A stretch of DNA of 64,000 bases from a plasmid, in sequence record NZ_CP029448.1; one strand, 5' to 3'. The number at the start of each line of letters is the position of its first letter. Position 1 is the stretch's first letter. Under the pieces are notes generated by a model, which saw nothing but the letters and a program-made list of their open reading frames with translations, searched no databases and was not told where the DNA came from. Position numbers and translations under genes: made by a program. This document shows positions 52,062 through 62,345 of the stretch, piece after piece.

Positions 52062-53256
<1,195 letters not shown>

Positions 53257-53462: not shown

Positions 53463-53969
53463 CGTACGATTTTTTCCGAATTCTGCGGTTCCCCCTACTG
53501 GGTCAATGGCCCTCGCGCGGTCGATCAGGCTGGCTGGAAGAAAATTATCGGGGACAAACCGACCCTGATCATGCTCGATGAGTTGCCGCCCTACCTTGAA
53601 AACGCGAGCACTACTGTCATCGGCGGCGGTACGCTGGCTACCGTGAGCACCTACACACTCAGCTGCCTGATGAGCGCCGCTCTGGAGTTACCGCGTTGCT
53701 GCATTGTGATTGCCAACCTATCCGGCAGCTATGTGGCTCAGACCAAGGCAATTGCCGAAGCAATCTCTAACCTCCAGCAAGAAGCCAGTCGCCAAGCGAG
53801 CACCATCACCCCCGTGCAGTTGGCGGGTACCTGTTCATCCCTAGCGCCTCTCCGCCTTGATGCTGGCAGATTCAGTCTGGCCTCGCGGTTCGACCTACCG
53901 AAATATCGGCGGTTACATTGTCCCCAGAGCTTCAGACCCGGCTGTTACCGGCCACGCCTGTCTGGGTAG
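53463..53969 (+). pseudogene. remnant of a P-loop NTPase gene (no start codon until 53571)
   Basis: open frame '...KIIGDKPTLIMLDELPPYLEN...' Walker-B-like 'LIMLDE'; lacks N-terminus. Confidence 0.25.
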
Positions 53970-54567
53970 GGAACGAGTGGTGGAACAGTCGGTTCCGTCG
54001 GGCGTTAACCTGCGGAACAGAAACCCATGCGACTTTCAGGTCGCACTGCCGAAATAATACTGGTTTCCCTTCTTGGTCTGGTGCATTTCCGGGTCGCGCT
54101 TGCCGTCCTTGTTCTTGGTCGAACTGGGCGCATTGATCAGCGTTGCATCGACGATGGTGCCCTGGCGCAGCGACAGGCCGCGGTCGCCCAGAGCCATTGA
54201 TGACAGCGAGGATGCCGGCCGCCAGCTCGTGTTTCTCCAGCAAGCGGCGGAAGTTGAGAATGGTGGTTTCGTCGGGGATGCGCTCCAGGTTCAGCCCGGC
54301 AAACTGGCGCAGGATCGTGGTTTCGTACAGCGCTTCCTCCATCGCTGGATCGCTGTAGCCGAACCAGTTCTGCAGCAGATGCACACGCAGCATCGCCATC
54401 AACGGGTAGGCCGGACGGCCACCTTCACCCTTCGGATAATGTGGCTCGATCAAAGCAATCAAGCCCTTCCACGGCACCACCCGATCCATCTCGATCAGGA
54501 ACAACTCCTTGCGGGTTTGCTTGCGCTTGCCAGCGTACTCGGCGTCGGCGAAGGTCATCTGCTTCAT
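53932..54567 (-). pseudogene. IS5-family (ISKpn26-like) transposase, frameshifted and truncated
   Basis: first roughly 118 aa match the IS5-family Tnp N-terminus ('MKQMTFADAEYAGKRKQTRKE...'), then the frame is lost near 54165, consistent with a 2-bp deletion. Confidence 0.65.
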
Positions 54568-54639
54568 CGGGAAACTCGGTGGGTGGAATCCGGGTATTTT
54601 GCCAAAATCTGGAAGTCTTCTTCAGAGTTTCCCTAGTGT

Positions 54640-54677
54640 GGGGTTTGAGGGCCAACGATGTAAAAAACCACGTTAAT
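54640..54677. repeat. Tn3-family IRL (38 bp)
   Basis: see transposon entry. Confidence 0.8.
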
Positions 54678-54837
54678 AGGTTAACCTATTGTTTTATTTT
54701 AATTATTAGGTGCTGCATTTACAGCTACTCCAATGATCATGGGGCTGATGGTCGATGGAACGCAATACCAAGTAGATTGATTGCATAAAGTTCCTTCAAT
54801 TCCGATCTGCCCTCCCGTTTTCACATCCTACTTCAGT

Positions 54838-56904
54838 TCAATTTTGTTGCCATTCCTTTACAACAGCTTCCCAATTGGCCGTTCTCTCGACCAATTTCCC
54901 ATCAGCATCCTTTCTTGTCCAAACATCCCAGAAATCAGGGTCATCAGAATGGGGTTGCTGCTCTTTCGTCAAATTTTTCATTTTAACTAAGACAGGAAGT
55001 TCAGATGCCCAGCCCATCAGTATTGCATGTTGAGATGGCAATGAAGGCAATTCACGGAGTAATCCTCGCAAATTGTCGGGTACCATTTTATGAACTTGCT
55101 CCTGATCTTTGTCATTGCTAATTCGATGCAGAAGAAAAGTATTACATTGAGATAAAACTGTAGGTGATAATTCTGATGGTCGTTGCGAAGAAATAACCAT
55201 ACCGAGACCAAATTTCCTGCCTTCTCGTGCAATTTTCTCAAATACTTGACAGCAAACAGCTGCGACATCCTGATTTTCACTGTCCTCACGATACCGTTTA
55301 ATAAATGTATGTGCTTCTTCAGCAACAAGTACCGTAGGTAAAGATTTGTTATATAGTCGTCTATAACGTTGCAATGATTCAAAAATAATTCTTGAAATGA
55401 CAGCTGTCACAAGATGAGTAATTTCAGTTGGTACTAAAGAAAGATCAATAATTGAAACGCAGCTATCACCATCACCATCTTTCCCAATATATGTTTCTAA
55501 CCAATTAGCCAAGTCAACTCTATGCTCTGAGTCATTGGTTATGGGTTTCATTCTTGTATCCGCAAGCATTGTGCGTATTCTAGCTACTAGATATTCAACA
55601 TATTGCTCGCTACCATTTTCTTGTGCTAACGCCTCTAAATAGGAGACTAAATTATTTCCGTCAAAAGGGACGGGGATATCCTCGTTTTTAGGAAGGAGTT
55701 CACACTCATCGCCTCCAAGGCTCTGAAATGAAGATAACACTCCATTTATGATGTTATCAACTGCGCTAACTTTAGCATTGTAATCTGGATATCTGCCTTC
55801 TCTTTGCCCACAAAAATCTTGAATAGAGATGATTAATTTATCTAGCTCAGGGCATGGTGTAGTTAATCTCGCTTTGTATTCTTCCAGACTCTGACGCCAA
55901 ATATTAATTTTAGCCAAAAGATTTTTGGCTCCAGGGAAATCATTAAGTGCCGCTGCTCCTTTAGATTTATCCGCTTTTAAAGAAACCAAAATTGTACCTA
56001 GGTATTTTTTAACTTCTATATCTATATTCTTTTGTAAATCAAATTCTTCATTTCTCATTGCTCTCAAGGAGCGTTTTAGTAATGGAAGTTGTGCTTTAGG
56101 ACTTGCTTGCGTGAATGATGCCCACTCCGAACTATTCCAAAACCATGAGGGTACTTGTAATTGGTTTTCACTGCCTTCAGCCTCAACCTTAAATACTCTA
56201 CCTTTAAATTTCGTCGTTGGCCCCAAAGCACGTGCATACTCGCCGTTGGGGTCTAGGATGATAAATCTGGCATTTGGTTTTATTTGTGATTCCAATGCAG
56301 ATTCGAGTGACCACTGGATTAATCCAGATACAGAGCAAGACTTACCGCTACCAGTATTTCCGAGCACTGCTATATGACGACCAAATAATCTATCAGGATC
56401 TACAGCTACATTTGCATTGTTCGCAAGTGGACTTTGTCCAATGATCACTCGCCTATTATTTCCAGATTCGACTATTGATCTAAGTTGTAAATCTGTCGGT
56501 AGTAAAATAGCAGCCCCAATAGAAGGAAACGATTCAGAACCTCGTTGAAATCTGAAATAATCAGTACCATCTTTGGACAAACGTTTAAGCATTCCCACCG
56601 GATTCAAACTTATTTTTTTTCGGGGGAATGGTAGATTTACTAAACCAAATTCTTGAACATCTCTTTGTTTTGGATAAGGCGAATGTTCTACAGCAAGCCA
56701 CTCTATTTGCCCAACTAAGTAACCATTATCACATGATATTAATACATAACTGTTTACTCTTGGAAAGTTTCTAGGCGTTCCTGCATTCAAAGCAACAGTA
56801 TCAGGTGAGTCAATCTCTAATATTGCTCTAATTTCATTAGGTGAAACAAAATCTACAGTGCCGACCCTGAGTTGCTCACCTTGTTCAATCGGAAATGAGT
56901 TCAT
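54838..56904 (-). CDS. herA: HerA-like (DUF87 / FtsK-HerA superfamily) ATPase, 688 aa
   Basis: Walker A 'GNTGSGKS', Walker B 'FIILDPNGEY'; start ATG overlaps the sir2 stop (ATGA). Confidence 0.8.
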   Translation of the reverse strand: MNSFPIEQGEQLRVGTVDFVSPNEIRAILEIDSPDTVALNAGTPRNFPRVNSYVLISCDNGYLVGQIEWLAVEHSPYPKQRDVQEFGLVNLPFPRKKISLNPVGMLKRLSKDGTDYFRFQRGSESFPSIGAAILLPTDLQLRSIVESGNNRRVIIGQSPLANNANVAVDPDRLFGRHIAVLGNTGSGKSCSVSGLIQWSLESALESQIKPNARFIILDPNGEYARALGPTTKFKGRVFKVEAEGSENQLQVPSWFWNSSEWASFTQASPKAQLPLLKRSLRAMRNEEFDLQKNIDIEVKKYLGTILVSLKADKSKGAAALNDFPGAKNLLAKINIWRQSLEEYKARLTTPCPELDKLIISIQDFCGQREGRYPDYNAKVSAVDNIINGVLSSFQSLGGDECELLPKNEDIPVPFDGNNLVSYLEALAQENGSEQYVEYLVARIRTMLADTRMKPITNDSEHRVDLANWLETYIGKDGDGDSCVSIIDLSLVPTEITHLVTAVISRIIFESLQRYRRLYNKSLPTVLVAEEAHTFIKRYREDSENQDVAAVCCQVFEKIAREGRKFGLGMVISSQRPSELSPTVLSQCNTFLLHRISNDKDQEQVHKMVPDNLRGLLRELPSLPSQHAILMGWASELPVLVKMKNLTKEQQPHSDDPDFWDVWTRKDADGKLVERTANWEAVVKEWQQN

Positions 56905-58292
56905 TCAGCATCCTCGCTATTATTTGAAATTGTTGTACGATATAAACCCCTTGATTTCAATAGTTCTGCCATACGAATTGATGATCTGTCTATCGCTGCT
57001 TTAGGAAGATAAAAATCCACTAAATTCTTGATATCTCCAAAGTGGTCACCAAGTAATAAAGATATTTGAGCTTTTCTTCCACTTTCGTTTACAAAGCGCA
57101 TAATTCTACCGAGTGGATCGCCGTAGGCAATTATTACTATATGCGTTGAGGGTATTGTCAGCATGTCAATAATAACACGGTTTATATGTTCATCTCCAAA
57201 ACTATAACCATATGTTACCAAAGTACTATTAGGACGACATGTTGCAGATGCTAAGTCTCTGAATAGTTCAACATAAGGGTATTCTGATGTTTCTCGGTCT
57301 TTAACCGAGTTTGGATAAATCATTAATTGATGATAGTTCGCTGCTCCAGCAGCCTCCACTTGTAAAAAGGGTTCCACCGAACTCGCACCAAAAGGTAATC
57401 CAAATCGCCTTATGGCTCCTTCGGTAGTATACCAGTCCAATGAGCCATGTAATTTAGTAAAGCGCGCCACACCTTCCAAATATCTTGGTTCACCACGAAT
57501 ACCCGGTGGATTATAATGATAGTCGACTTCTAGTCGCGAAGATCTGAAAATAGGCGCTATAGTACCAACAAATCTGTCAATTAGTCGAATACCTGCTATT
57601 TCAGCTCCTGCTTCAATTATCCTGTCGTAATTCGTCGTGAAAATATGTAATCGATCCCTTGTCGCTGTTCGACTTGAAAAACTCATCAAAAAACTTACTA
57701 AATAATTAAACGTTTGTGTTTTTAAATCGTTTTTTGCATCGCGAATTAACTTTTCCCCATTACTAACTGAATCTGAGAATAATTTCAAACATCTTGTTAG
57801 CTCATTATTTAACTCAACTAACTCACTTTTTAAATTTCGATATGGGAGAGCACCAGGAGGCGGTTCTGGAAGTGGGAGATTTTGCGCAGTTAAAATCTCT
57901 AATCCTTTAATTAACTCATTAATTGAACGGATTTGGTCTTCAATATTACCTCTTCCTCTTCCTGAGGCTTCAGCTGTTTTAGCTACATAACTATCTATTT
58001 CAGCCTTGCAAACTTTGAGATCATTAATCCATCCCATGCCTTGAGGTTTCGTGCCTGTCGCTGACTCTTGGATTGCTGAACTAAGTCCCGCGCCAATAAG
58101 TATATTTAGGTGTTCAGACTGAAAAAGAGCAGTTAACCAAGGTTCTATTCTTAAACGCAAAAAATCAGGAGTGATTTTATCTCCTGGTTTTGCCCATGAG
58201 CAGTGTCCAACAACTTTAAATGCACCAACTTCGCTGTGTGGATCCAACTGAACCGGAGACTGGTCATCTCCAAGCTTTAAGTATTGACTCAC
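56901..58292 (-). CDS. SIR2-like domain protein (predicted NAD+ hydrolase), 463 aa
   Basis: sirtuin-type motifs 'NILIGAGLS' (GAGxS), 'FTTNYDRIIE' (TxNxD), 'LHGSLDW' (catalytic His); no Zn-ribbon cysteines, as in defense-type SIR2. Confidence 0.75.
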   Translation of the reverse strand: MSQYLKLGDDQSPVQLDPHSEVGAFKVVGHCSWAKPGDKITPDFLRLRIEPWLTALFQSEHLNILIGAGLSSAIQESATGTKPQGMGWINDLKVCKAEIDSYVAKTAEASGRGRGNIEDQIRSINELIKGLEILTAQNLPLPEPPPGALPYRNLKSELVELNNELTRCLKLFSDSVSNGEKLIRDAKNDLKTQTFNYLVSFLMSFSSRTATRDRLHIFTTNYDRIIEAGAEIAGIRLIDRFVGTIAPIFRSSRLEVDYHYNPPGIRGEPRYLEGVARFTKLHGSLDWYTTEGAIRRFGLPFGASSVEPFLQVEAAGAANYHQLMIYPNSVKDRETSEYPYVELFRDLASATCRPNSTLVTYGYSFGDEHINRVIIDMLTIPSTHIVIIAYGDPLGRIMRFVNESGRKAQISLLLGDHFGDIKNLVDFYLPKAAIDRSSIRMAELLKSRGLYRTTISNNSEDAE

Positions 58293-58299
58293 TTTGAAT

Positions 58300-58869
58300 T
58301 CATCCTTCGTTAGAGTTAATAGCTGTTTTTCTTTTCAGCCTAAAATAGGTCGCCCTTGATATACCCGTTTTTTCCATTACTTCCTTAACTTGTACGTCCT
58401 TATTAATCAATTCATTAGCTAATTCAGCCTTCTTGTGAGGCTTTCTTCCGAATTTGACCCCCTTAATCATAGCGGTCTTCCGCCCATCGTTAGTTCGCTC
58501 CAAGATCCTTTCTCGTTCCGCCTCGGCAACAGCTGCTAGTATCTGGATAACCATTTTTCCCATTGTGCCTTCAGTACTAAGACCATTCTCTAGAAATCGG
58601 ATAGCGATGCCTTTTTTATAGCAAGTATCCACAATACGAATCATATCAGCGGTATTACGTCCTAGACGATCCATTTTAGTACAGAGGATGATGTCATCTT
58701 TCTCCGCTCTGGCAAGGAGTCTCTGTAGCCCTGCACGCTCATCAGTTGCTCCTGACATCATGTCAGTAAATACACGATCATCCCTCACTCCCGCTGTTTT
58801 GAGTTCAGTAATCTGGCTCGTCAGTTTCTGATGGCTGGTTGATACTCTTGCATATCCTAATAATGCCAT
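58300..58869 (-). CDS. tnpR: serine resolvase TnpR
   Basis: 'GYARVSTSHQ' catalytic Ser motif, C-terminal HTH 'ISRATYFRL'. Confidence 0.9.
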   Translation of the reverse strand: MALLGYARVSTSHQKLTSQITELKTAGVRDDRVFTDMMSGATDERAGLQRLLARAEKDDIILCTKMDRLGRNTADMIRIVDTCYKKGIAIRFLENGLSTEGTMGKMVIQILAAVAEAERERILERTNDGRKTAMIKGVKFGRKPHKKAELANELINKDVQVKEVMEKTGISRATYFRLKRKTAINSNEG

Positions 58870-59028
58870 TTTGGTCTCATAAATCGATATTGATACTGCG
58901 TAGTATCATAAGGTATAAATCGCGATTTTTGATACTAATGTATGATGCCGTTTTGAGCAGTCTCACAATTTATAATATTTGAGACGGTTAAAAAAAGGAC
59001 AGAACTCCCGTTTACGAAAGGATGCGCA
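58870..59028. promoter_or_regulatory. res site / divergent tnpR-tnpA promoter region
   Basis: AT-rich 159-bp spacer with perfect palindrome TGATACTGCGTAGTATCA (58891-58908) and related half-site TGATACTAATGTATGA (58930-58945). Confidence 0.6.
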
Positions 59029-62000
59029 ATGAGTGATGACTTTCTTACCAGCGAACAGACAGAAAACTACGGTCGCTATGTGGCAGACCCAAATGAGGTT
59101 CAGCTGGCTCGGTATTTTCATCTGGATGAGCGTGACCTTGCTTTTATTAATCAGCGACGGGGAAAACATAACCGGCTGGGGATTGCACTTCAGCTGACTA
59201 CGGCGCGCTTTCTGGGAACGTTTCTTCCTGATCCCCTTCAAATTCCCTCATTCATCCGTTTTTACATTGCGGCACAGTTGAACATCAGCCGACCAGAGAT
59301 CCTTTCCCGGTATGCTGAAAGAGAAAATACCCGCTGGGAGCATCAGGGGCTTATCAAGCTCTATTATGATTATCATGATTTTGGTGATTTCCCCTGGACA
59401 TTCAGACTGAAGCGTTTGCTCTATACTCGCGCCTGGCTCAGCAATGAGCGTCCAGGTCTGCTGTTTGATTTTGCTACCGCATGGTTGCTGCAAAATAAGA
59501 TCCTGCTACCCGCAGCCTCGACTCTGACAAGGCTGATTGGCGAAGTACGCGAACGGGCAAGTCGACGATTATGGCGAAGGCTGGCTTTGTTGCCTGACAG
59601 CTGGCAGAAAACACAACTGGACGGTTTACTTGAAATACCTGAAGGGCAGCGTATATCGGTGCTGGAGGAGATGCGAAAAGGTCCTGTCACTATCAGTGGG
59701 CCGTCATTTACAGACGCCCTGGAGCGATATACCCGACTGCGTAGCATGGAGTTTTCCCGGTTGAATTTCTCCGGTCTGCCTGCCATCCAGCTGCGGAATT
59801 TGGCCCGTTATGCCGGAATGGCTTCGGTGAAATACATTTCAAGAATGCCTGACGAACGGCGACTGGCCGTGCTTACTGCGTTTGTGAAAGCACAGGAAAT
59901 TTCGGCGCTTGACGAGGCCGTGGATGTGCTGGATATGCTTATTCTGGATATCACGCGTTCTGCAAAAAATATCGGGCAGAAAAAGCGGCTCAGGACCCTG
60001 AAAGATCTTGATCGTGCCGCGCTATTACTGGCACGGGCATGCACGTTATTACTTGATGAGAACACCGATGAAGCAGCTCTGCGGCAGGCTATTTTTCGCC
60101 GCATACCAAAGGACAAACTGGCTGAATCCGTCGGCAAGGTAAATGAGCTGGCGCGCCCGCAAGATACTCAGTTTCAGGATGAAATGGTGGAACAATATGG
60201 ACGGGTGAAGCGTTTCCTGTCCGCGATGTTGCGTGACTTACACTTTCAGGCCGCCCCGGCCGGGGAGCTCACGTTGTCAGCAATCCATTATCTGGCCGAA
60301 CTGAGTGGCTCAAAAAAGCGAATTCTCGACGATGCACCAGAGCAAATCATTTCCGGCCCATGGAAACGTCTGGTCTACGACAGAGATGGTAGGATTCTAC
60401 GAGCGGGTTACTCGCTGTGTCTTCTCGAGCGCCTTCAAGATTCTTTGCGCCGTCGTGATCTCTGGCTGGAGAACAGTGATCGGTGGGGGGACCCGCGTCA
60501 AAAATTGCTTCAGGGAGCTGAATGGCAGGCACAACGCATCCCGGTATGTCGGGCGCTGGGTCATCCATCAGACGGAACTAAAGCAGCAGAACAACTGGCT
60601 ACGCGGCTTGATGACACATGGAAATCAGTGGCTTCACGTTTTGCCTGCAACGCAGCGGTCAGCATAAGCAATGAAGGTAAGCATCCCTCACTGACGATTA
60701 GCAGTCTGGATAAACTGGATGAGCCACCGGCACTGATACAATTGAATCGTCGGGTAAGAGAATTGATCCCTCCGGTTGATCTGACGGAGCTGTTGCTTGA
60801 AATAGATGCCCGAACCGGTTTTACCCGCGAATTCAGCCACGTCAGTGAATCAGGTGCTCGGGCGCAGGATCTCCAGGTCAGTCTGTGCGCAACACTGCTG
60901 GCAGAAGCCTGCAATATAGGGCATGAACCCCTGATAAAGCATAATATTCCCGCGCTTACTCGCCATCGTCTGAGCTGGGTTAAACAAAATTATCTCAGGG
61001 CAGAAACGCTGGTCACCGCTAATGCACGGCTGGTTGATTTTCAGTCCACGCTGCCGCTCGCGGGGTACTGGGGAGGTGGTGAGGTTGCCTCCGCAGATGG
61101 TATGCGTTTTGTCACACCGGTTAAAACGGTTAATTCCGGACCAAATCGTAAATACTTTGGTTCAGGACGCGGTATCACCTGGTACAACTTCGTCTCCGAT
61201 CAATACTCCGGTTTCCATGGCATTGTAGTTCCCGGGACGCTTCGTGATTCCATCTTTGTACTGGAAGGGCTTCTGGAGCAGCAGACCGGGCTGAATCCGG
61301 TAGAAATTATGACGGACACGGCAGGATCCAGCGATATCATTTTTGGCCTGTTCTGGTTACTGGGCTACCAGTTTTCCCCTCGTCTGGCCGATGCAGGCGG
61401 GGCGATATTCTGGCGGGCAGATAAAACGGCACATTATGGTGCCCTGAATGAGCTGGCCCGGGGATGTGTTGAACTGTCAAAAATAGAATCCCAATGGGAT
61501 GAAATGATGCGAATGGCGGGCTCACTGAAGCTTGGGACCATCCATGCATCAGAGCTTATTCGTTCACTGTTGAGAAGTAGCCGACCATCTGGTCTGGCTC
61601 AGGCGATTATGGAAGTGGGCCGGGTCAACAAGACGTTGTATCTTCTCAACTATATCGATGATGAGGATTACCGGCGTCGGATCCTCACTCAGCTCAACCG
61701 GGGAGAAGGACGCCATGCAGTGGCTCGAGCCATTTGCTACGGACAACGTGGTGAGATTAGAAAACGCTACCGTGAAGGGCAGGAAGATCAACTCGGTGCT
61801 CTGGGTCTGGTGACCAATGCGGTTGTGCTGTGGAATACACTTTACATGCAGGAGGCGTTGTCACATCTTCGCAAATCGGGGGAAACACCTGAAGAGGAGC
61901 ATCTGGCAAGATTATCGCCGCTGATACATGGCCATATAAATATGCTGGGACATTATACGTTTTCGTTACCGGAAGATATTCTGAAGGGCGAGTTAAGACC

Positions 62001-62037
62001 ATTAAATTTGAATACAAACAATGAATTAACCTCTTAG
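59029..62037 (+). CDS. tnpA: Tn3-family transposase TnpA (1002 aa)
   Basis: DUF4158 N-terminus 'RLGIALQLTTARFLG', Tn3 DDE catalytic body; stop codon inside IRR. Confidence 0.95.
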   Translation: MSDDFLTSEQTENYGRYVADPNEVQLARYFHLDERDLAFINQRRGKHNRLGIALQLTTARFLGTFLPDPLQIPSFIRFYIAAQLNISRPEILSRYAERENTRWEHQGLIKLYYDYHDFGDFPWTFRLKRLLYTRAWLSNERPGLLFDFATAWLLQNKILLPAASTLTRLIGEVRERASRRLWRRLALLPDSWQKTQLDGLLEIPEGQRISVLEEMRKGPVTISGPSFTDALERYTRLRSMEFSRLNFSGLPAIQLRNLARYAGMASVKYISRMPDERRLAVLTAFVKAQEISALDEAVDVLDMLILDITRSAKNIGQKKRLRTLKDLDRAALLLARACTLLLDENTDEAALRQAIFRRIPKDKLAESVGKVNELARPQDTQFQDEMVEQYGRVKRFLSAMLRDLHFQAAPAGELTLSAIHYLAELSGSKKRILDDAPEQIISGPWKRLVYDRDGRILRAGYSLCLLERLQDSLRRRDLWLENSDRWGDPRQKLLQGAEWQAQRIPVCRALGHPSDGTKAAEQLATRLDDTWKSVASRFACNAAVSISNEGKHPSLTISSLDKLDEPPALIQLNRRVRELIPPVDLTELLLEIDARTGFTREFSHVSESGARAQDLQVSLCATLLAEACNIGHEPLIKHNIPALTRHRLSWVKQNYLRAETLVTANARLVDFQSTLPLAGYWGGGEVASADGMRFVTPVKTVNSGPNRKYFGSGRGITWYNFVSDQYSGFHGIVVPGTLRDSIFVLEGLLEQQTGLNPVEIMTDTAGSSDIIFGLFWLLGYQFSPRLADAGGAIFWRADKTAHYGALNELARGCVELSKIESQWDEMMRMAGSLKLGTIHASELIRSLLRSSRPSGLAQAIMEVGRVNKTLYLLNYIDDEDYRRRILTQLNRGEGRHAVARAICYGQRGEIRKRYREGQEDQLGALGLVTNAVVLWNTLYMQEALSHLRKSGETPEEEHLARLSPLIHGHINMLGHYTFSLPEDILKGELRPLNLNTNNELTS

Positions 62038-62068
62038 CGTGGTTTTTTACATCATTGGACCTCGAACC
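62031..62068. repeat. Tn3-family IRR (38 bp)
   Basis: see transposon entry. Confidence 0.8.
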
Positions 62069-62345
62069 CCAGTGTGCGCTCTCTTGCTTGGATGGCATTA
62101 CGTTCTGGCCCAACGTTACTGTAGCGAATCCGCAGCAGTATCAATCAAAGCCTCCTGTATCCCGCGTGAAGAAAGACGCTACGTTGCGCCCGTTCTTCCA
62201 CGGCTTCGCTTGCCGCCCCGCTACGGCAGATTCGAAGTATTCATCGAAATGTCATCCTTTAGAAGCAGTGCGGTAACAAGGAATTTCTATCCTTTGCATC
62301 GCGAACCGCAATTGTGCGGCCAGCAATATTGCGAAAGGTGATCAA

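What the first reader, a model, noticed from the sequence alone, without database searches (positions are those of the whole stretch)
54640..62068. Tn3-family transposon whose only passenger is a SIR2-like + HerA-like defense operon, with intact 38-bp inverted repeats and a clean 5-bp target duplication (AGTGT)
Element structure:
- Both 38-bp ends have the Tn3-family GGGG...ACGYTAAG architecture.
- The tnpA stop lies inside IRR.
- tnpR and tnpA are divergent around an AT-rich res region.
- Identical AGTGT pentamers at 54635-54639 and 62069-62073 show a complete, probably recent, transposition event rather than a decayed relic.

Cargo: a tightly packed, co-oriented tnpR-sir2-herA array. The tnpR-sir2 gap is 7 bp and sir2/herA overlap as ATGA. 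The cargo is much more AT-rich than tnpA or the surrounding high-GC phn DNA, so it is foreign.

Anti-phage SIR2/HerA pairs are known. A Tn3-family transposon dedicated to carrying one, with the cargo possibly transcribed from the res/tnpR promoter, would be an unusual vehicle and would allow conjugative-plasmid spread of the system.
Basis: partly seen in the sequence, partly recalled or inferred. Interest (0 to 1): 0.85.

Follow-up and report, generated by a model that had tools for sequence, protein, structure and literature searches.

The report
Tn3-family transposon carrying SIR2-HerA defence
This is an intact, recently inserted 7.4-kb jumping gene of the Tn3 family whose only cargo is a two-gene SIR2-HerA anti-phage system; it is real but not rare, because identical copies already sit on many plasmids of gut bacteria.

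Summary
The element spans 54640-62070 (7,431 bp), not 54640-62068. The right AGTGT duplication is at 62071-62075.

- **Transposon:** it has 38-bp GGGG-type inverted repeats (33/38 identical), a 1002-aa Tn3 DDE transposase and a divergent 189-aa serine resolvase. The two genes flank a 159-bp AT-rich res region.
- **Cargo:** a tnpR-sir2-herA array, with a 7-bp tnpR-sir2 gap and an ATGA overlap between sir2 and herA.
- **Clean insertion:** the reconstructed empty site, with a single AGTGT, occurs uninterrupted and 100% identical in 10 plasmids.
- **Active spread:** copies with 0-1 SNP sit at other sites in Klebsiella, Enterobacter and Citrobacter plasmids, several with their own 5-bp duplications.
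- **Distribution:** the cargo is in 200 PLSDB plasmids and 32 of 5,426 complete E. coli genomes.
- **Variant forms:** at least four forms exist. They are hybrids whose junction lies in res site I.
- **Function:** the cargo carries intact SIR2 and HerA catalytic motifs and matches PADLOC SIR2-HerA models end to end. By residue numbering it appears to belong to the subfamily recently tested as "type III Sir2-HerA".
- **Novelty:** I found no paper describing this transposon. Its components and the idea of defence genes on transposons are both known, so it is a new member of a known kind, of moderate interest.

The parts
54635..54639 (.). Left copy of the 5-bp target-site duplication AGTGT
   Evidence: The empty site with a single AGTGT is found in 10 plasmids.
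54640..54677 (.). Cargo-side 38-bp terminal inverted repeat (GGGG...ACGTTAAT)
   Evidence: It is 33/38 identical to the other end.
54838..56904 (-). herA, 688 aa. Walker A GNTGSGKS (K188), ILDPNGEY (D218), Walker B-like VLVAEEAH, SQRP motif.
   Evidence: PADLOC HerA PDLC04098 3.6e-247 over 5-687. Pfam DUF87 3.5e-22. PDB 8wiv_A 7e-49. Motifs.
56901..58292 (-). sir2, 463 aa, GTG start. GAGLS, TTNYD (N221), HGS (H282), GYSFGDEHIN. Overlaps herA by ATGA.
   Evidence: PADLOC SIR2 PDLC04079 7e-156. Pfam SIR2_2 1.3e-7. PDB 8j4u_A 9.6e-22, or 6.8e-28 with a profile. Overlap.
58300..58869 (-). tnpR, a 189-aa serine resolvase (MALLGYARVS, presumed catalytic S10). Its TGA stop overlaps the sir2 ribosome-binding site AAGGATGA.
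   Evidence: Pfam Resolvase 2.9e-39. Sequence.
58870..59028 (.). res region, 35% GC. Contains palindrome TGATACTGCGTAGTATCA (58891-58908), a further TGATACT (58930-58936), and the direct repeat ATAAATCG.GATT (58879 and 58915).
58960..58985 (.). Putative res site I (crossover site): GTCTCA-N14-TGAGAC centred on TTATAA
   Evidence: Sequence. The switch from about 90% to about 99% identity between transposon forms falls between 58970 and 58995.
59029..62037 (+). tnpA, a 1002-aa Tn3-family DDE transposase. Its stop codon lies inside the right inverted repeat.
   Evidence: NCBIfam transpos_Tn3 1122.7 bits. Pfam DDE_Tnp_Tn3 9.7e-153 and DUF4158 7.9e-54. 64% aa identity to Tn3 TnpA and about 82% to ISEc63 TnpA.
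62033..62070 (.). tnpA-side 38-bp terminal inverted repeat (reverse complement GGGG...ACGCTAAG)
62071..62075 (.).

Best explanation
**What it is.** A functional 7,431-bp Tn3-family (Tn3-subgroup) replicative transposon.

**Transposition (inferred from family knowledge).** TnpA recognises the 38-bp ends and makes a cointegrate with a 5-bp target duplication. TnpR then resolves the cointegrate at res site I, between tnpR and tnpA.

**Cargo.**
- The only passenger is a two-gene SIR2-HerA abortive-infection system, sitting directly behind tnpR on the same strand.
- By analogy with tested SIR2-HerA systems, SIR2 and HerA should form one large complex. A phage cue would switch on SIR2 NAD+ hydrolysis, and in the type III relatives a HerA nickase/ATPase checkpoint as well. 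The infected cell would then stop growing before the phage matures.

**Expression (inferred).**
- The cassette brought no promoter of its own. In this form its ribosome-binding site overlaps the tnpR stop codon.
- It is therefore most likely transcribed as tnpR-sir2-herA from the res-embedded tnpR promoter, and so under TnpR autorepression.

**Shown here:** the element's anatomy, the clean insertion, repeated independent insertions, arm exchange at res, intact catalytic motifs, and wide spread on conjugative plasmids.

**Inferred:** transposition chemistry, anti-phage activity, NADase activity, and co-transcription.
For: **Anatomy and family assignment**
-.

**Insertion and mobility**
- The empty site is 100% identical in 10 plasmids.
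- Copies in C. freundii (China), E. roggenkampii (Canada) and K. michiganensis (UK) plasmids have 0 differences over 7,431 bp. Five other copies differ by 1 SNP.
- Independent 5-bp duplications: TTTAT, TATTA and GTATA for this form; TTATG, GTATT and TACAC for sister forms. One of these is a chromosomal E. coli insertion.

**Resolvase activity over evolutionary time**
- Window versus L009: the tnpA arm is 99.2% identical, but the cargo arm is 83-93% identical.
- L009 versus the E. coli form L021: the cargo arm is 100% identical, but the tnpA arm is 70-83% identical.
- Both switches fall in res site I.

**Cargo identity**
-.

**Subfamily**
- Zhang et al. 2026 (PMC13434337) show anti-phage activity for type III Sir2-HerA. 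They map HerA K188 (ATPase), HerA D218 (nickase) and Sir2 N238 (NADase).
- The window HerA has K188 and D218 at exactly those positions.
- The 480-aa relative P0009 (82% identical SIR2) has N238, and its partner HerA has K188 and D218.

**Co-transcription**
- Same strand, 7-bp gap, and no terminator-like site on the minus strand between 58869 and 54838.
- Homology to non-transposon cassettes starts only about 15-18 nt upstream of sir2.
- TnpR binding to res represses the transposon promoters in Tn3 (PMC7157771).
Against: - No experiment exists on this exact protein pair.
- Scores are far below the NCBIfam equivalog cut-offs for the characterised anti-phage SIR2 and HerA: 118 bits against a cut-off of 500, and 227 against 850. 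It is therefore not the Nezha or Paenibacillus type.
- The link to type III rests only on residue numbering. No accession numbers or supplements were available.
- The AlphaFold model of SIR2 was poor, with mean pLDDT 57 and the catalytic core below 50. There is no structural confirmation.
- No strong sigma-70 consensus was found for the tnpR promoter. The best candidates score 8/12.
- A weak promoter-like site lies inside tnpR (58715 to 58688, 9/12).
- Sister forms have a 76-bp tnpR-sir2 spacer that could hold a promoter of their own.
- Six of 13 copies examined lack matching duplications. This fits later rearrangement but was not analysed further.
Confidence: 0.85

Rival explanations
1. The SIR2-HerA pair serves mainly the transposon or plasmid itself. 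It would act as an addiction or stabilisation module, or as an anti-competitor module against other plasmids or transposons, like the toxin-antitoxin pairs embedded next to res in other Tn3-family members. Phage defence would be secondary.
For: - The cargo abuts the transposition module and sits in the tnpR operon. It has stayed linked to tnpR through at least two arm exchanges.
- Lima-Mendez et al. 2020 (PMC7157771) note that module-embedded passengers such as TA pairs differ from ordinary passengers and may be co-regulated with tnpR and tnpA.
- SIR2-HerA is a potentially toxic NADase.
Against: - Close relatives of the same cassette (78-85% identity) sit in classic defence hotspots with no Tn3 module: an SXT/R391-like ICE, a P2-like prophage hotspot, and integrase islands.
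- Tested SIR2-HerA systems, including the apparently same subfamily, are phage-triggered abortive-infection systems (PMC13434337).
- No antitoxin-like labile partner is present.
Confidence: 0.1
2. The element is an immobile relic or a chance juxtaposition. On this reading the sir2-herA genes lie next to a Tn3 remnant, and the AGTGT repeats and IR-like ends are coincidental.
For: - The two inverted repeats differ at 5 of 38 positions, and the cargo-side repeat ends in TAAT instead of TAAG.
- Several copies elsewhere lack matching duplications.
Against: - The empty site is found at 100% identity in 10 plasmids.
- The identical 7,431-bp unit, bounded by exactly these ends, is found at many different sites.
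- Three other copies of this form have matching 5-bp duplications.
- All four reading frames are intact.
Confidence: 0.01
3. The cargo is expressed from its own promoter, either inside the 3' part of tnpR or in the spacer of the sister forms. Its position behind tnpR would then have no regulatory meaning, and the transposon would be only a vehicle.
For: - A weak promoter-like site lies within tnpR (58715 to 58688, TTGCCA-16-CATCAT with a TG extension, 9/12).
- Sister forms carry a 76-bp spacer between tnpR and sir2.
- Zhang et al. cloned their systems with a 'native promoter'.
Against: - In this form the spacer is deleted, and the tnpR stop codon overlaps the sir2 ribosome-binding site.
- No sequence upstream of the ribosome-binding site is shared with non-transposon cassettes.
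- No terminator-like site follows tnpR.
Confidence: 0.3

Closest known systems
Tn3 / gamma-delta subgroup of the Tn3 family. The nearest named relative is ISEc63, at about 82% TnpA identity. Tn3 TnpA itself is 64% identical.
   Same: - A DDE transposase of about 1000 aa.
- 38-bp GGGG...TAAG ends and a 5-bp duplication.
- A divergent tnpR and tnpA with res between them, and site I on the tnpA side.
- A serine resolvase with an N-terminal serine at position 10.
   Different: - The passenger is an anti-phage operon, not a resistance, catabolic or virulence gene.
- It sits directly behind tnpR as an apparent operon rather than at a distance.
- PGAP gives the transposase no named sub-family.
Tn3-family transposons with embedded toxin-antitoxin pairs (Lima-Mendez et al. 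2020, PMC7157771)
   Same: A small, potentially toxic two-gene module lies next to the resolvase/res module and is probably co-regulated with it. It is inherited together with the transposition module.
   Different: - Those TA pairs lie upstream of tnpR, abutting res. Here the cargo is downstream of tnpR.
- The cargo is a 3.5-kb NADase/ATPase defence system, not a type II TA pair.
SIR2-HerA (Nezha) anti-phage systems: E. coli 8J4U/8SU9, Paenibacillus sp. 453MF 8W9L/8WIV, and the type I-III classification of Zhang et al. 2026 (PMC13434337)
   Same: - Adjacent, translationally coupled sir2 and herA genes.
- SIR2 Asn/His catalytic pair, and HerA Walker A/B motifs.
- PADLOC SIR2-HerA models are matched end to end.
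- HerA K188 and D218 are at the positions mutated in type III.
   Different: - Only distant from the solved representatives (SIR2 E=1e-21, HerA E=7e-49) and below the NCBIfam equivalog cut-offs.
- Identity with type III is inferred from numbering only.
- None of these papers mentions a transposon context.
Defence cargo of Tn7-like transposons (Benler et al. 2021, PMC8649781), and defence hotspots of ICEs and P2-like prophages
   Same: A defence system carried as cargo of a mobile element. Relatives of this same cassette occur in an SXT/R391-like ICE and in a P2-like prophage hotspot.
   Different: - A different transposon family and mechanism: replicative Tn3-type with 5-bp duplications at many different, mostly AT-rich sites, not Tn7-type targeted insertion.
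- A single-system cargo in a minimal 7.4-kb element.

Membership tests
Tn3-family transposon | Large (about 1000 aa) DDE transposase of the Tn3 type | tested here: met
   NCBIfam transpos_Tn3 scores 1122.7 bits against a cut-off of 500. Pfam DDE_Tnp_Tn3 is matched over 1-389 of 389 positions (9.7e-153), plus DUF4158.
Tn3-family transposon | 38-40-bp terminal inverted repeats starting GGGG and ending in a TAAG-like motif | tested here: met
   33/38 identical. The tnpA-side repeat ends ACGCTAAG and the cargo-side repeat ends ACGTTAAT.
Tn3-family transposon | 5-bp target-site duplication | tested here: met
   AGTGT on both sides, and the empty site with one copy is in 10 plasmids. Six other copies have their own 5-bp duplications.
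Tn3-family transposon | Resolvase plus a res site with a crossover site | tested here: met
   Serine resolvase, Pfam 2.9e-39. Palindromic site I centred on TTATAA. Hybrid forms switch arms within it. Subsites II and III are assigned only from repeats.
Tn3-family transposon | Replicative transposition through a cointegrate, and target immunity | not testable with these tools
   Needs mating-out or cointegrate assays.
SIR2-HerA anti-phage system | Adjacent co-oriented sir2 and herA genes | tested here: met
   ATGA overlap. 78 of 79 species-level relatives keep the pair.
SIR2-HerA anti-phage system | Match to system-specific profile models | tested here: met
   PADLOC SIR2 PDLC04079 7.1e-156 and HerA PDLC04098 3.6e-247, both nearly full length.
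SIR2-HerA anti-phage system | Intact SIR2 NADase residues and HerA ATPase motifs | tested here: met
   TTNYD N221 and HGS H282 are invariant in 30 homologues. Walker A K188, VLVAEEAH and SQRP are present.
SIR2-HerA anti-phage system | Phage protection with NAD+ depletion | not testable with these tools
   Experimental. Shown only for relatives (PMC13434337, PMC11514289, PMC11472057).
Nezha / Paenibacillus-type SIR2-HerA (NCBIfam equivalogs NF042942, NF042943, NF042944) | Score above the curated equivalog cut-off | tested here: not met
   SIR2 118 bits against 500. HerA 227 against 850 and 188 against 800. It is a different subfamily.
Type III Sir2-HerA (Zhang et al. 2026) | Same protein subfamily as the tested E. 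coli type III pair | tested here: inconclusive
   HerA K188 and D218 match exactly. Sir2 N238 matches the 480-aa relative P0009 (82% identical), while the window SIR2 has N221. No accession numbers are available.

The most novel reading that the evidence does not exclude
**Proposal.** The defence operon is wired into the transposon's own regulatory circuit. It sits behind tnpR with no promoter of its own, so SIR2-HerA would be expressed from the res promoter and repressed by TnpR.

**Predicted behaviour.**
- A burst of defence expression, together with transposase, when the plasmid or transposon enters a naive cell that has no TnpR.
- Afterwards, a low, self-limited level that keeps a toxic NADase safe.

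**Why it would be new.** Both effects would come from the transposon's own regulator. This would make a defence system an integral part of a Tn3 transposition module, as proposed for TA pairs. It would also be a previously undescribed way of regulating abortive-infection immunity.
Probability: 0.25. Interest if true: 0.6.

Novelty: new member of a known kind. Interest (0 to 1): 0.4.

Why it matters
- **A compact vehicle.** It shows a self-mobilising 7.4-kb unit moving a potent abortive-infection system between conjugative and mobilizable plasmids, and into chromosomes, of Klebsiella, Enterobacter, Citrobacter, Escherichia, Salmonella, Serratia and Morganella. Copies from three continents differ by 0-1 SNP.
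- **Relevance to phage therapy.** The spread matters for phage therapy and phage ecology in clinical Enterobacterales, because these plasmids often also carry resistance and heavy-metal genes.
- **A new passenger class.** It adds anti-phage defence to the passenger repertoire of the Tn3 family as listed in the 2020 paper read here: resistance, virulence, catabolism and TA.
- **A natural experiment.** The hybrid forms document resolvase-mediated arm exchange. The cargo's position behind tnpR gives a testable link between transposon autoregulation and control of a toxic immune effector.

Tried and rejected
- Nine of them looked for a description or name of the element. They combined Tn3, SIR2, HerA, DUF87, transposon, DefenseFinder, cargo and the four RefSeq protein accessions, and none found one.
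- One candidate paper (Cronobacter) concerns an unrelated non-autonomous Tn3 element.
- The supplements of Zhang et al. 2026 are not held, so type III identity could not be checked by sequence.

**Structure.** The AlphaFold2 model of SIR2, built from a 30-sequence alignment, gave mean pLDDT 57 with the catalytic core below 50. I judged it unusable and ran no fold search. A profile search of PDB sequences was used instead.

**Other features inside the element.**
- Rfam scan at E<=0.1: no hits.
- Terminator after herA: the fold is not better than shuffled sequence, z = -1.0.
- A 41-aa ORF (54699-54824, minus strand) behind herA was rejected as a gene. This stretch is only 83% identical to the sister form and carries single-base indels.
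- The 188-aa gene upstream of the 85%-identical cassette in L011 is not a resolvase.

**Rejected readings.** A chance or relic interpretation was rejected on the empty-site and multi-copy evidence.
Full report
**1. Observation**

The region holds four long reading frames:
- herA, 54838-56904, minus strand, 688 aa.
- sir2, 56901-58292, minus strand, 463 aa, GTG start.
- tnpR, 58300-58869, minus strand, 189 aa.
- tnpA, 59029-62037, plus strand, 1002 aa.

An inverted repeat brackets them, at 54639-54694 and 62016-62071. Reading the sequence gives these boundaries:
- The 38-bp ends are 54640-54677 and 62033-62070, 33/38 identical. Both start GGGG.
- The tnpA-side end finishes ACGCTAAG. The cargo-side end finishes ACGTTAAT.
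- The flanking pentamer AGTGT is at 54635-54639 and 62071-62075.
Everything else it listed is correct.

- The tnpA stop codon TAG (62035-62037) lies inside the right repeat.
- The divergent tnpR and tnpA flank a 159-bp region of 35% GC.
- The tnpR-sir2 gap is 7 bp, and sir2 and herA overlap as ATGA.
- GC content is 38.7-38.8% for the cargo, 43% for tnpR, 51% for tnpA and 58% for the right flank.

**2. It is a real and recent insertion**

I joined 700 bp of left flank to 700 bp of right flank, keeping one AGTGT, and searched PLSDB. Ten plasmids carry this reconstructed empty site uninterrupted at 100% identity. They come from Raoultella, K. quasipneumoniae, Citrobacter and E. asburiae.

The site lies just upstream of phnC. 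It is 72 bp from the start of a truncated IS5-family ORF.

No PLSDB record carries the element at this site. The window's insertion is therefore private.

**3. The element is a widespread, active unit**

- Megablast of the element with 100-bp flanks found 79 plasmids holding at least 80% of it.
- The best hits match exactly over 54640-62070 and not into the flanks.
- I fetched eight copies. Three are identical over all 7,431 bp: C. freundii from China, E. roggenkampii from Canada and K. michiganensis from the UK. The other five differ by one SNP.
- They sit at different sites. Three have their own matching 5-bp duplications: TTTAT, TATTA (inside traX) and GTATA (on an IncX3 plasmid). Five have unmatched flanks. 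Unmatched flanks are expected after secondary rearrangements, but I did not analyse them further.
- The cargo alone is present in 200 PLSDB plasmids: Citrobacter 60, Escherichia 50, Klebsiella 38, Enterobacter 26, Salmonella 14. Of these, 152 are conjugative or mobilizable.
- It is also in 32 of 5,426 complete E. coli genomes, including chromosomal copies.

**4. Family of hybrid forms**

| Form | Where seen | Length | Cargo arm | tnpA arm |
|---|---|---|---|---|
| A | the window | 7,431 bp | reference | reference |
| B | R. terrigena L009, Morganella L010 | 7,517/7,518 bp | 83-93% identical to A | 99.2% identical to A |
| C | E. coli L021-L023 | 7,517 bp | 100% identical to B | 70-83% identical to B (250-column windows); 77% to A |
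| D | Cedecea L072 | 7,513 bp | SIR2 93%, HerA 81% (aa) to A | TnpA 94% (aa) to A |

- In the A/B comparison, dense mismatches stop at 58969 and near-identity begins by 58999. This interval contains the centre of the palindrome GTCTCA-N14-TGAGAC (58960-58985, centred on TTATAA).
- By position (tnpA-proximal) and shape, that palindrome is res site I.
- This is the classical signature of resolvase-mediated exchange of arms between related Tn3-family elements. It shows that tnpR-sir2-herA has travelled as one arm.
- Forms B and C have matching duplications TTATG, GTATT (inside ISCR1) and TACAC (in a chromosomal ddp ABC-transporter gene).
- Form A differs from B and C by an 81-bp deletion between tnpR and sir2. 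The deletion remodels the last residues of TnpR (189 versus 193 aa). It also places the tnpR TGA inside the sir2 ribosome-binding site AAGGATGA. The sir2 start is GTG in A and TTG in B.

**5. Transposition module**

- TnpA scores 1122.7 bits on NCBIfam transpos_Tn3 and matches Pfam DDE_Tnp_Tn3 end to end.
- It is 64% identical to Tn3 TnpA. The nearest named relative is ISEc63, at about 82%.
- TnpR is a serine resolvase (Pfam 2.9e-39) with the N-terminal MALLGYARVS motif.
- Besides site I, the res region contains the perfect palindrome TGATACTGCGTAGTATCA (58891-58908), a second TGATACT (58930-58936) and a direct repeat ATAAATCG.GATT. These are plausible subsites II and III.
- Consensus promoter scans give only weak candidates, 8/12.

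**6. Cargo**

Profile matches:
- PADLOC SIR2-HerA models match nearly full length: SIR2 7.1e-156 and HerA 3.6e-247.
- Pfam gives SIR2_2 (1.3e-7) and DUF87/HerA (3.5e-22).
- The only PDB sequences matched by the SIR2 protein are SIR2 subunits of SIR2-HerA complexes. These are 8J4U/8SU9 at 9.6e-22 (6.8e-28 with a 30-sequence profile), 8YHX, and 8W9L.
- HerA matches the HerA chains of the same complexes best (8WIV 7e-49).

Motifs:
- SIR2 keeps GAGLS, TTNYD (N221), HGS (H282) and GYSFGDEHIN. All are invariant across 30 homologues.
- HerA keeps Walker A GNTGSGKS (K188), VLVAEEAH and SQRP.

Subfamily:
- The pair scores far below the NCBIfam equivalog cut-offs built on the characterised systems, so it is a distinct subfamily.
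- Zhang et al. 2026 (PMC13434337) divide E. coli Sir2-HerA into Nezha and types I-III. They show that type III is the most potent.
- In their work, type III is triggered by T7 Gp2.5 and Gp5.9. It depends on HerA K188 (ATPase), HerA D218 (nickase) and Sir2 N238 (NADase).
- The window HerA has K188 and D218 at those exact positions.
- The 82%-identical 480-aa relative P0009 has N238, and its partner HerA has K188 and D218. The P2-prophage relative has N227, K186 and D216 instead.
- I infer that the cargo belongs to the type III subfamily. This rests on numbering only.

**7. Origin of the cargo**

- Of 79 species-level genome loci with SIR2 relatives (46-100% identity), 78 keep an adjacent HerA. 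Only two carry the Tn3 module, in Serratia marcescens and Cedecea.
- Relatives at 78-85% identity are mostly in marine Gammaproteobacteria such as Vibrio, Shewanella, Marinomonas and Rheinheimera.
- They sit in other mobile contexts:
  - an integrase island in Rheinheimera;
  - a Pantoea island;
  - an SXT/R391-like ICE next to traF, traH and traG in Morganella;
  - for a 70% relative, the ogr-gpD hotspot of a P2-like prophage in E. coli.
- Nucleotide homology between the transposon cargo and these cassettes begins only 15-18 nt upstream of sir2 and ends at the herA stop.
- The cassette therefore moved as two bare ORFs with a ribosome-binding site.
- The low GC of the cargo fits a foreign origin in a lower-GC host.

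**8. Mechanism**

Shown:
- The anatomy, the clean insertion and the repeated independent insertions.
- Arm exchange at res, intact catalytic motifs, and plasmid-borne spread.

Inferred from the Tn3 family:
- TnpA-mediated replicative transposition, with cointegrate resolution by TnpR at site I.
- TnpR repression of the res promoters (PMC7157771).

Inferred from SIR2-HerA studies (PMC13434337, PMC11514289, PMC11472057):
- A SIR2-HerA complex that depletes NAD+ upon phage cues and aborts infection.

Inferred from layout:
- Transcription of sir2-herA as part of the tnpR operon, under TnpR autoregulation.
- Support comes from the 7-bp gap, the stop/RBS overlap, the absence of a predicted terminator and the absence of an inherited promoter.
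- Against this stand a weak internal promoter-like site and the 76-bp spacer in the sister forms.

**9. Novelty and verdict**

- All parts are of known kinds. Defence systems on mobile elements, including Tn7-like transposons (PMC8649781), are established.
- Identical sequences are abundant in public records and are annotated gene by gene ("Tn3 family transposase", "recombinase family protein", "SIR2 family protein", "DUF87 domain-containing protein").
- None of the searches aimed at a description of the element returned a paper that describes or names it. The recent Sir2-HerA classification paper does not mention transposons.
- The 2020 paper on Tn3-family TA passengers names resistance, virulence, catabolism and TA among passenger genes, and does not name anti-phage defence.
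- I therefore file it as a new member of a known kind, of moderate interest.
- The more interesting open possibility is that the defence operon is regulated by the transposon's resolvase.

Noticed in passing
window 58960-58985; L009, L021, L072: At least four forms of the SIR2-HerA transposon exist. They are mosaics that swap the cargo arm and the tnpA arm at res site I. The same cargo arm (100% identical) is joined to tnpA genes only 70-83% identical to each other.
   Followed up: yes
window 58293-58315, compared with L009 3960-4035: The window's form has an 81-bp deletion between tnpR and sir2 relative to the sister forms. This changes the TnpR C-terminus (189 versus 193 aa) and puts the tnpR stop codon inside the sir2 ribosome-binding site.
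   Followed up: partly
L016 7001-10464 (Morganella); L026 7001-10449 (E. coli); L012 7001-10461 (Rheinheimera): Relatives of the same sir2-herA cassette (70-84% aa identity) sit in other mobile contexts. These are an SXT/R391-like ICE next to traF, traH and traG, the ogr-gpD hotspot of a P2-like prophage, and an integrase-bounded island. The cassette hops between unrelated mobile elements.
   Followed up: partly
window 61766-62037: The last 272 bp of tnpA match, at about 92% identity, an unannotated fragment present in roughly 960 plasmids, mostly from E. coli. This looks like an old relic of a related Tn3-family element.
   Followed up: no
L020 4779-5180 (ISEc63 in an IncN plasmid): In this IncN plasmid, a small PD-(D/E)XK nuclease-family ORF lies just beyond tnpR of ISEc63, the nearest named relative. 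Whether it lies inside the element, or is also a defence or anti-defence passenger, was not examined.
   Followed up: no
L023 5976-8984 (E. coli VTB97420v chromosome): A chromosomal copy inserted in a ddp ABC-transporter gene (duplication TACAC) has an internal stop in tnpA but intact tnpR, sir2 and herA. The defence cargo may be becoming fixed while the transposase decays.
   Followed up: no
window 1-54000: The surrounding replicon resembles Klebsiella and Raoultella heavy-metal plasmids. It carries sil and pco genes and a ter-associated cluster (PP2C phosphatase, StiP protease, ATP-grasp, phosphoribosyltransferase). It also holds ISKpn26 (52130-53110) and a truncated IS5-family ORF (53932-54567).
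   Followed up: partly
L024 235-9443: The 480-aa SIR2 relative whose residue numbering fits type III Sir2-HerA lies near an EptA-like phosphoethanolamine transferase with PAP2, and near umuDC-like genes. It is not in a Tn3 element. In that contig herA is split into two ORFs.
   Followed up: no
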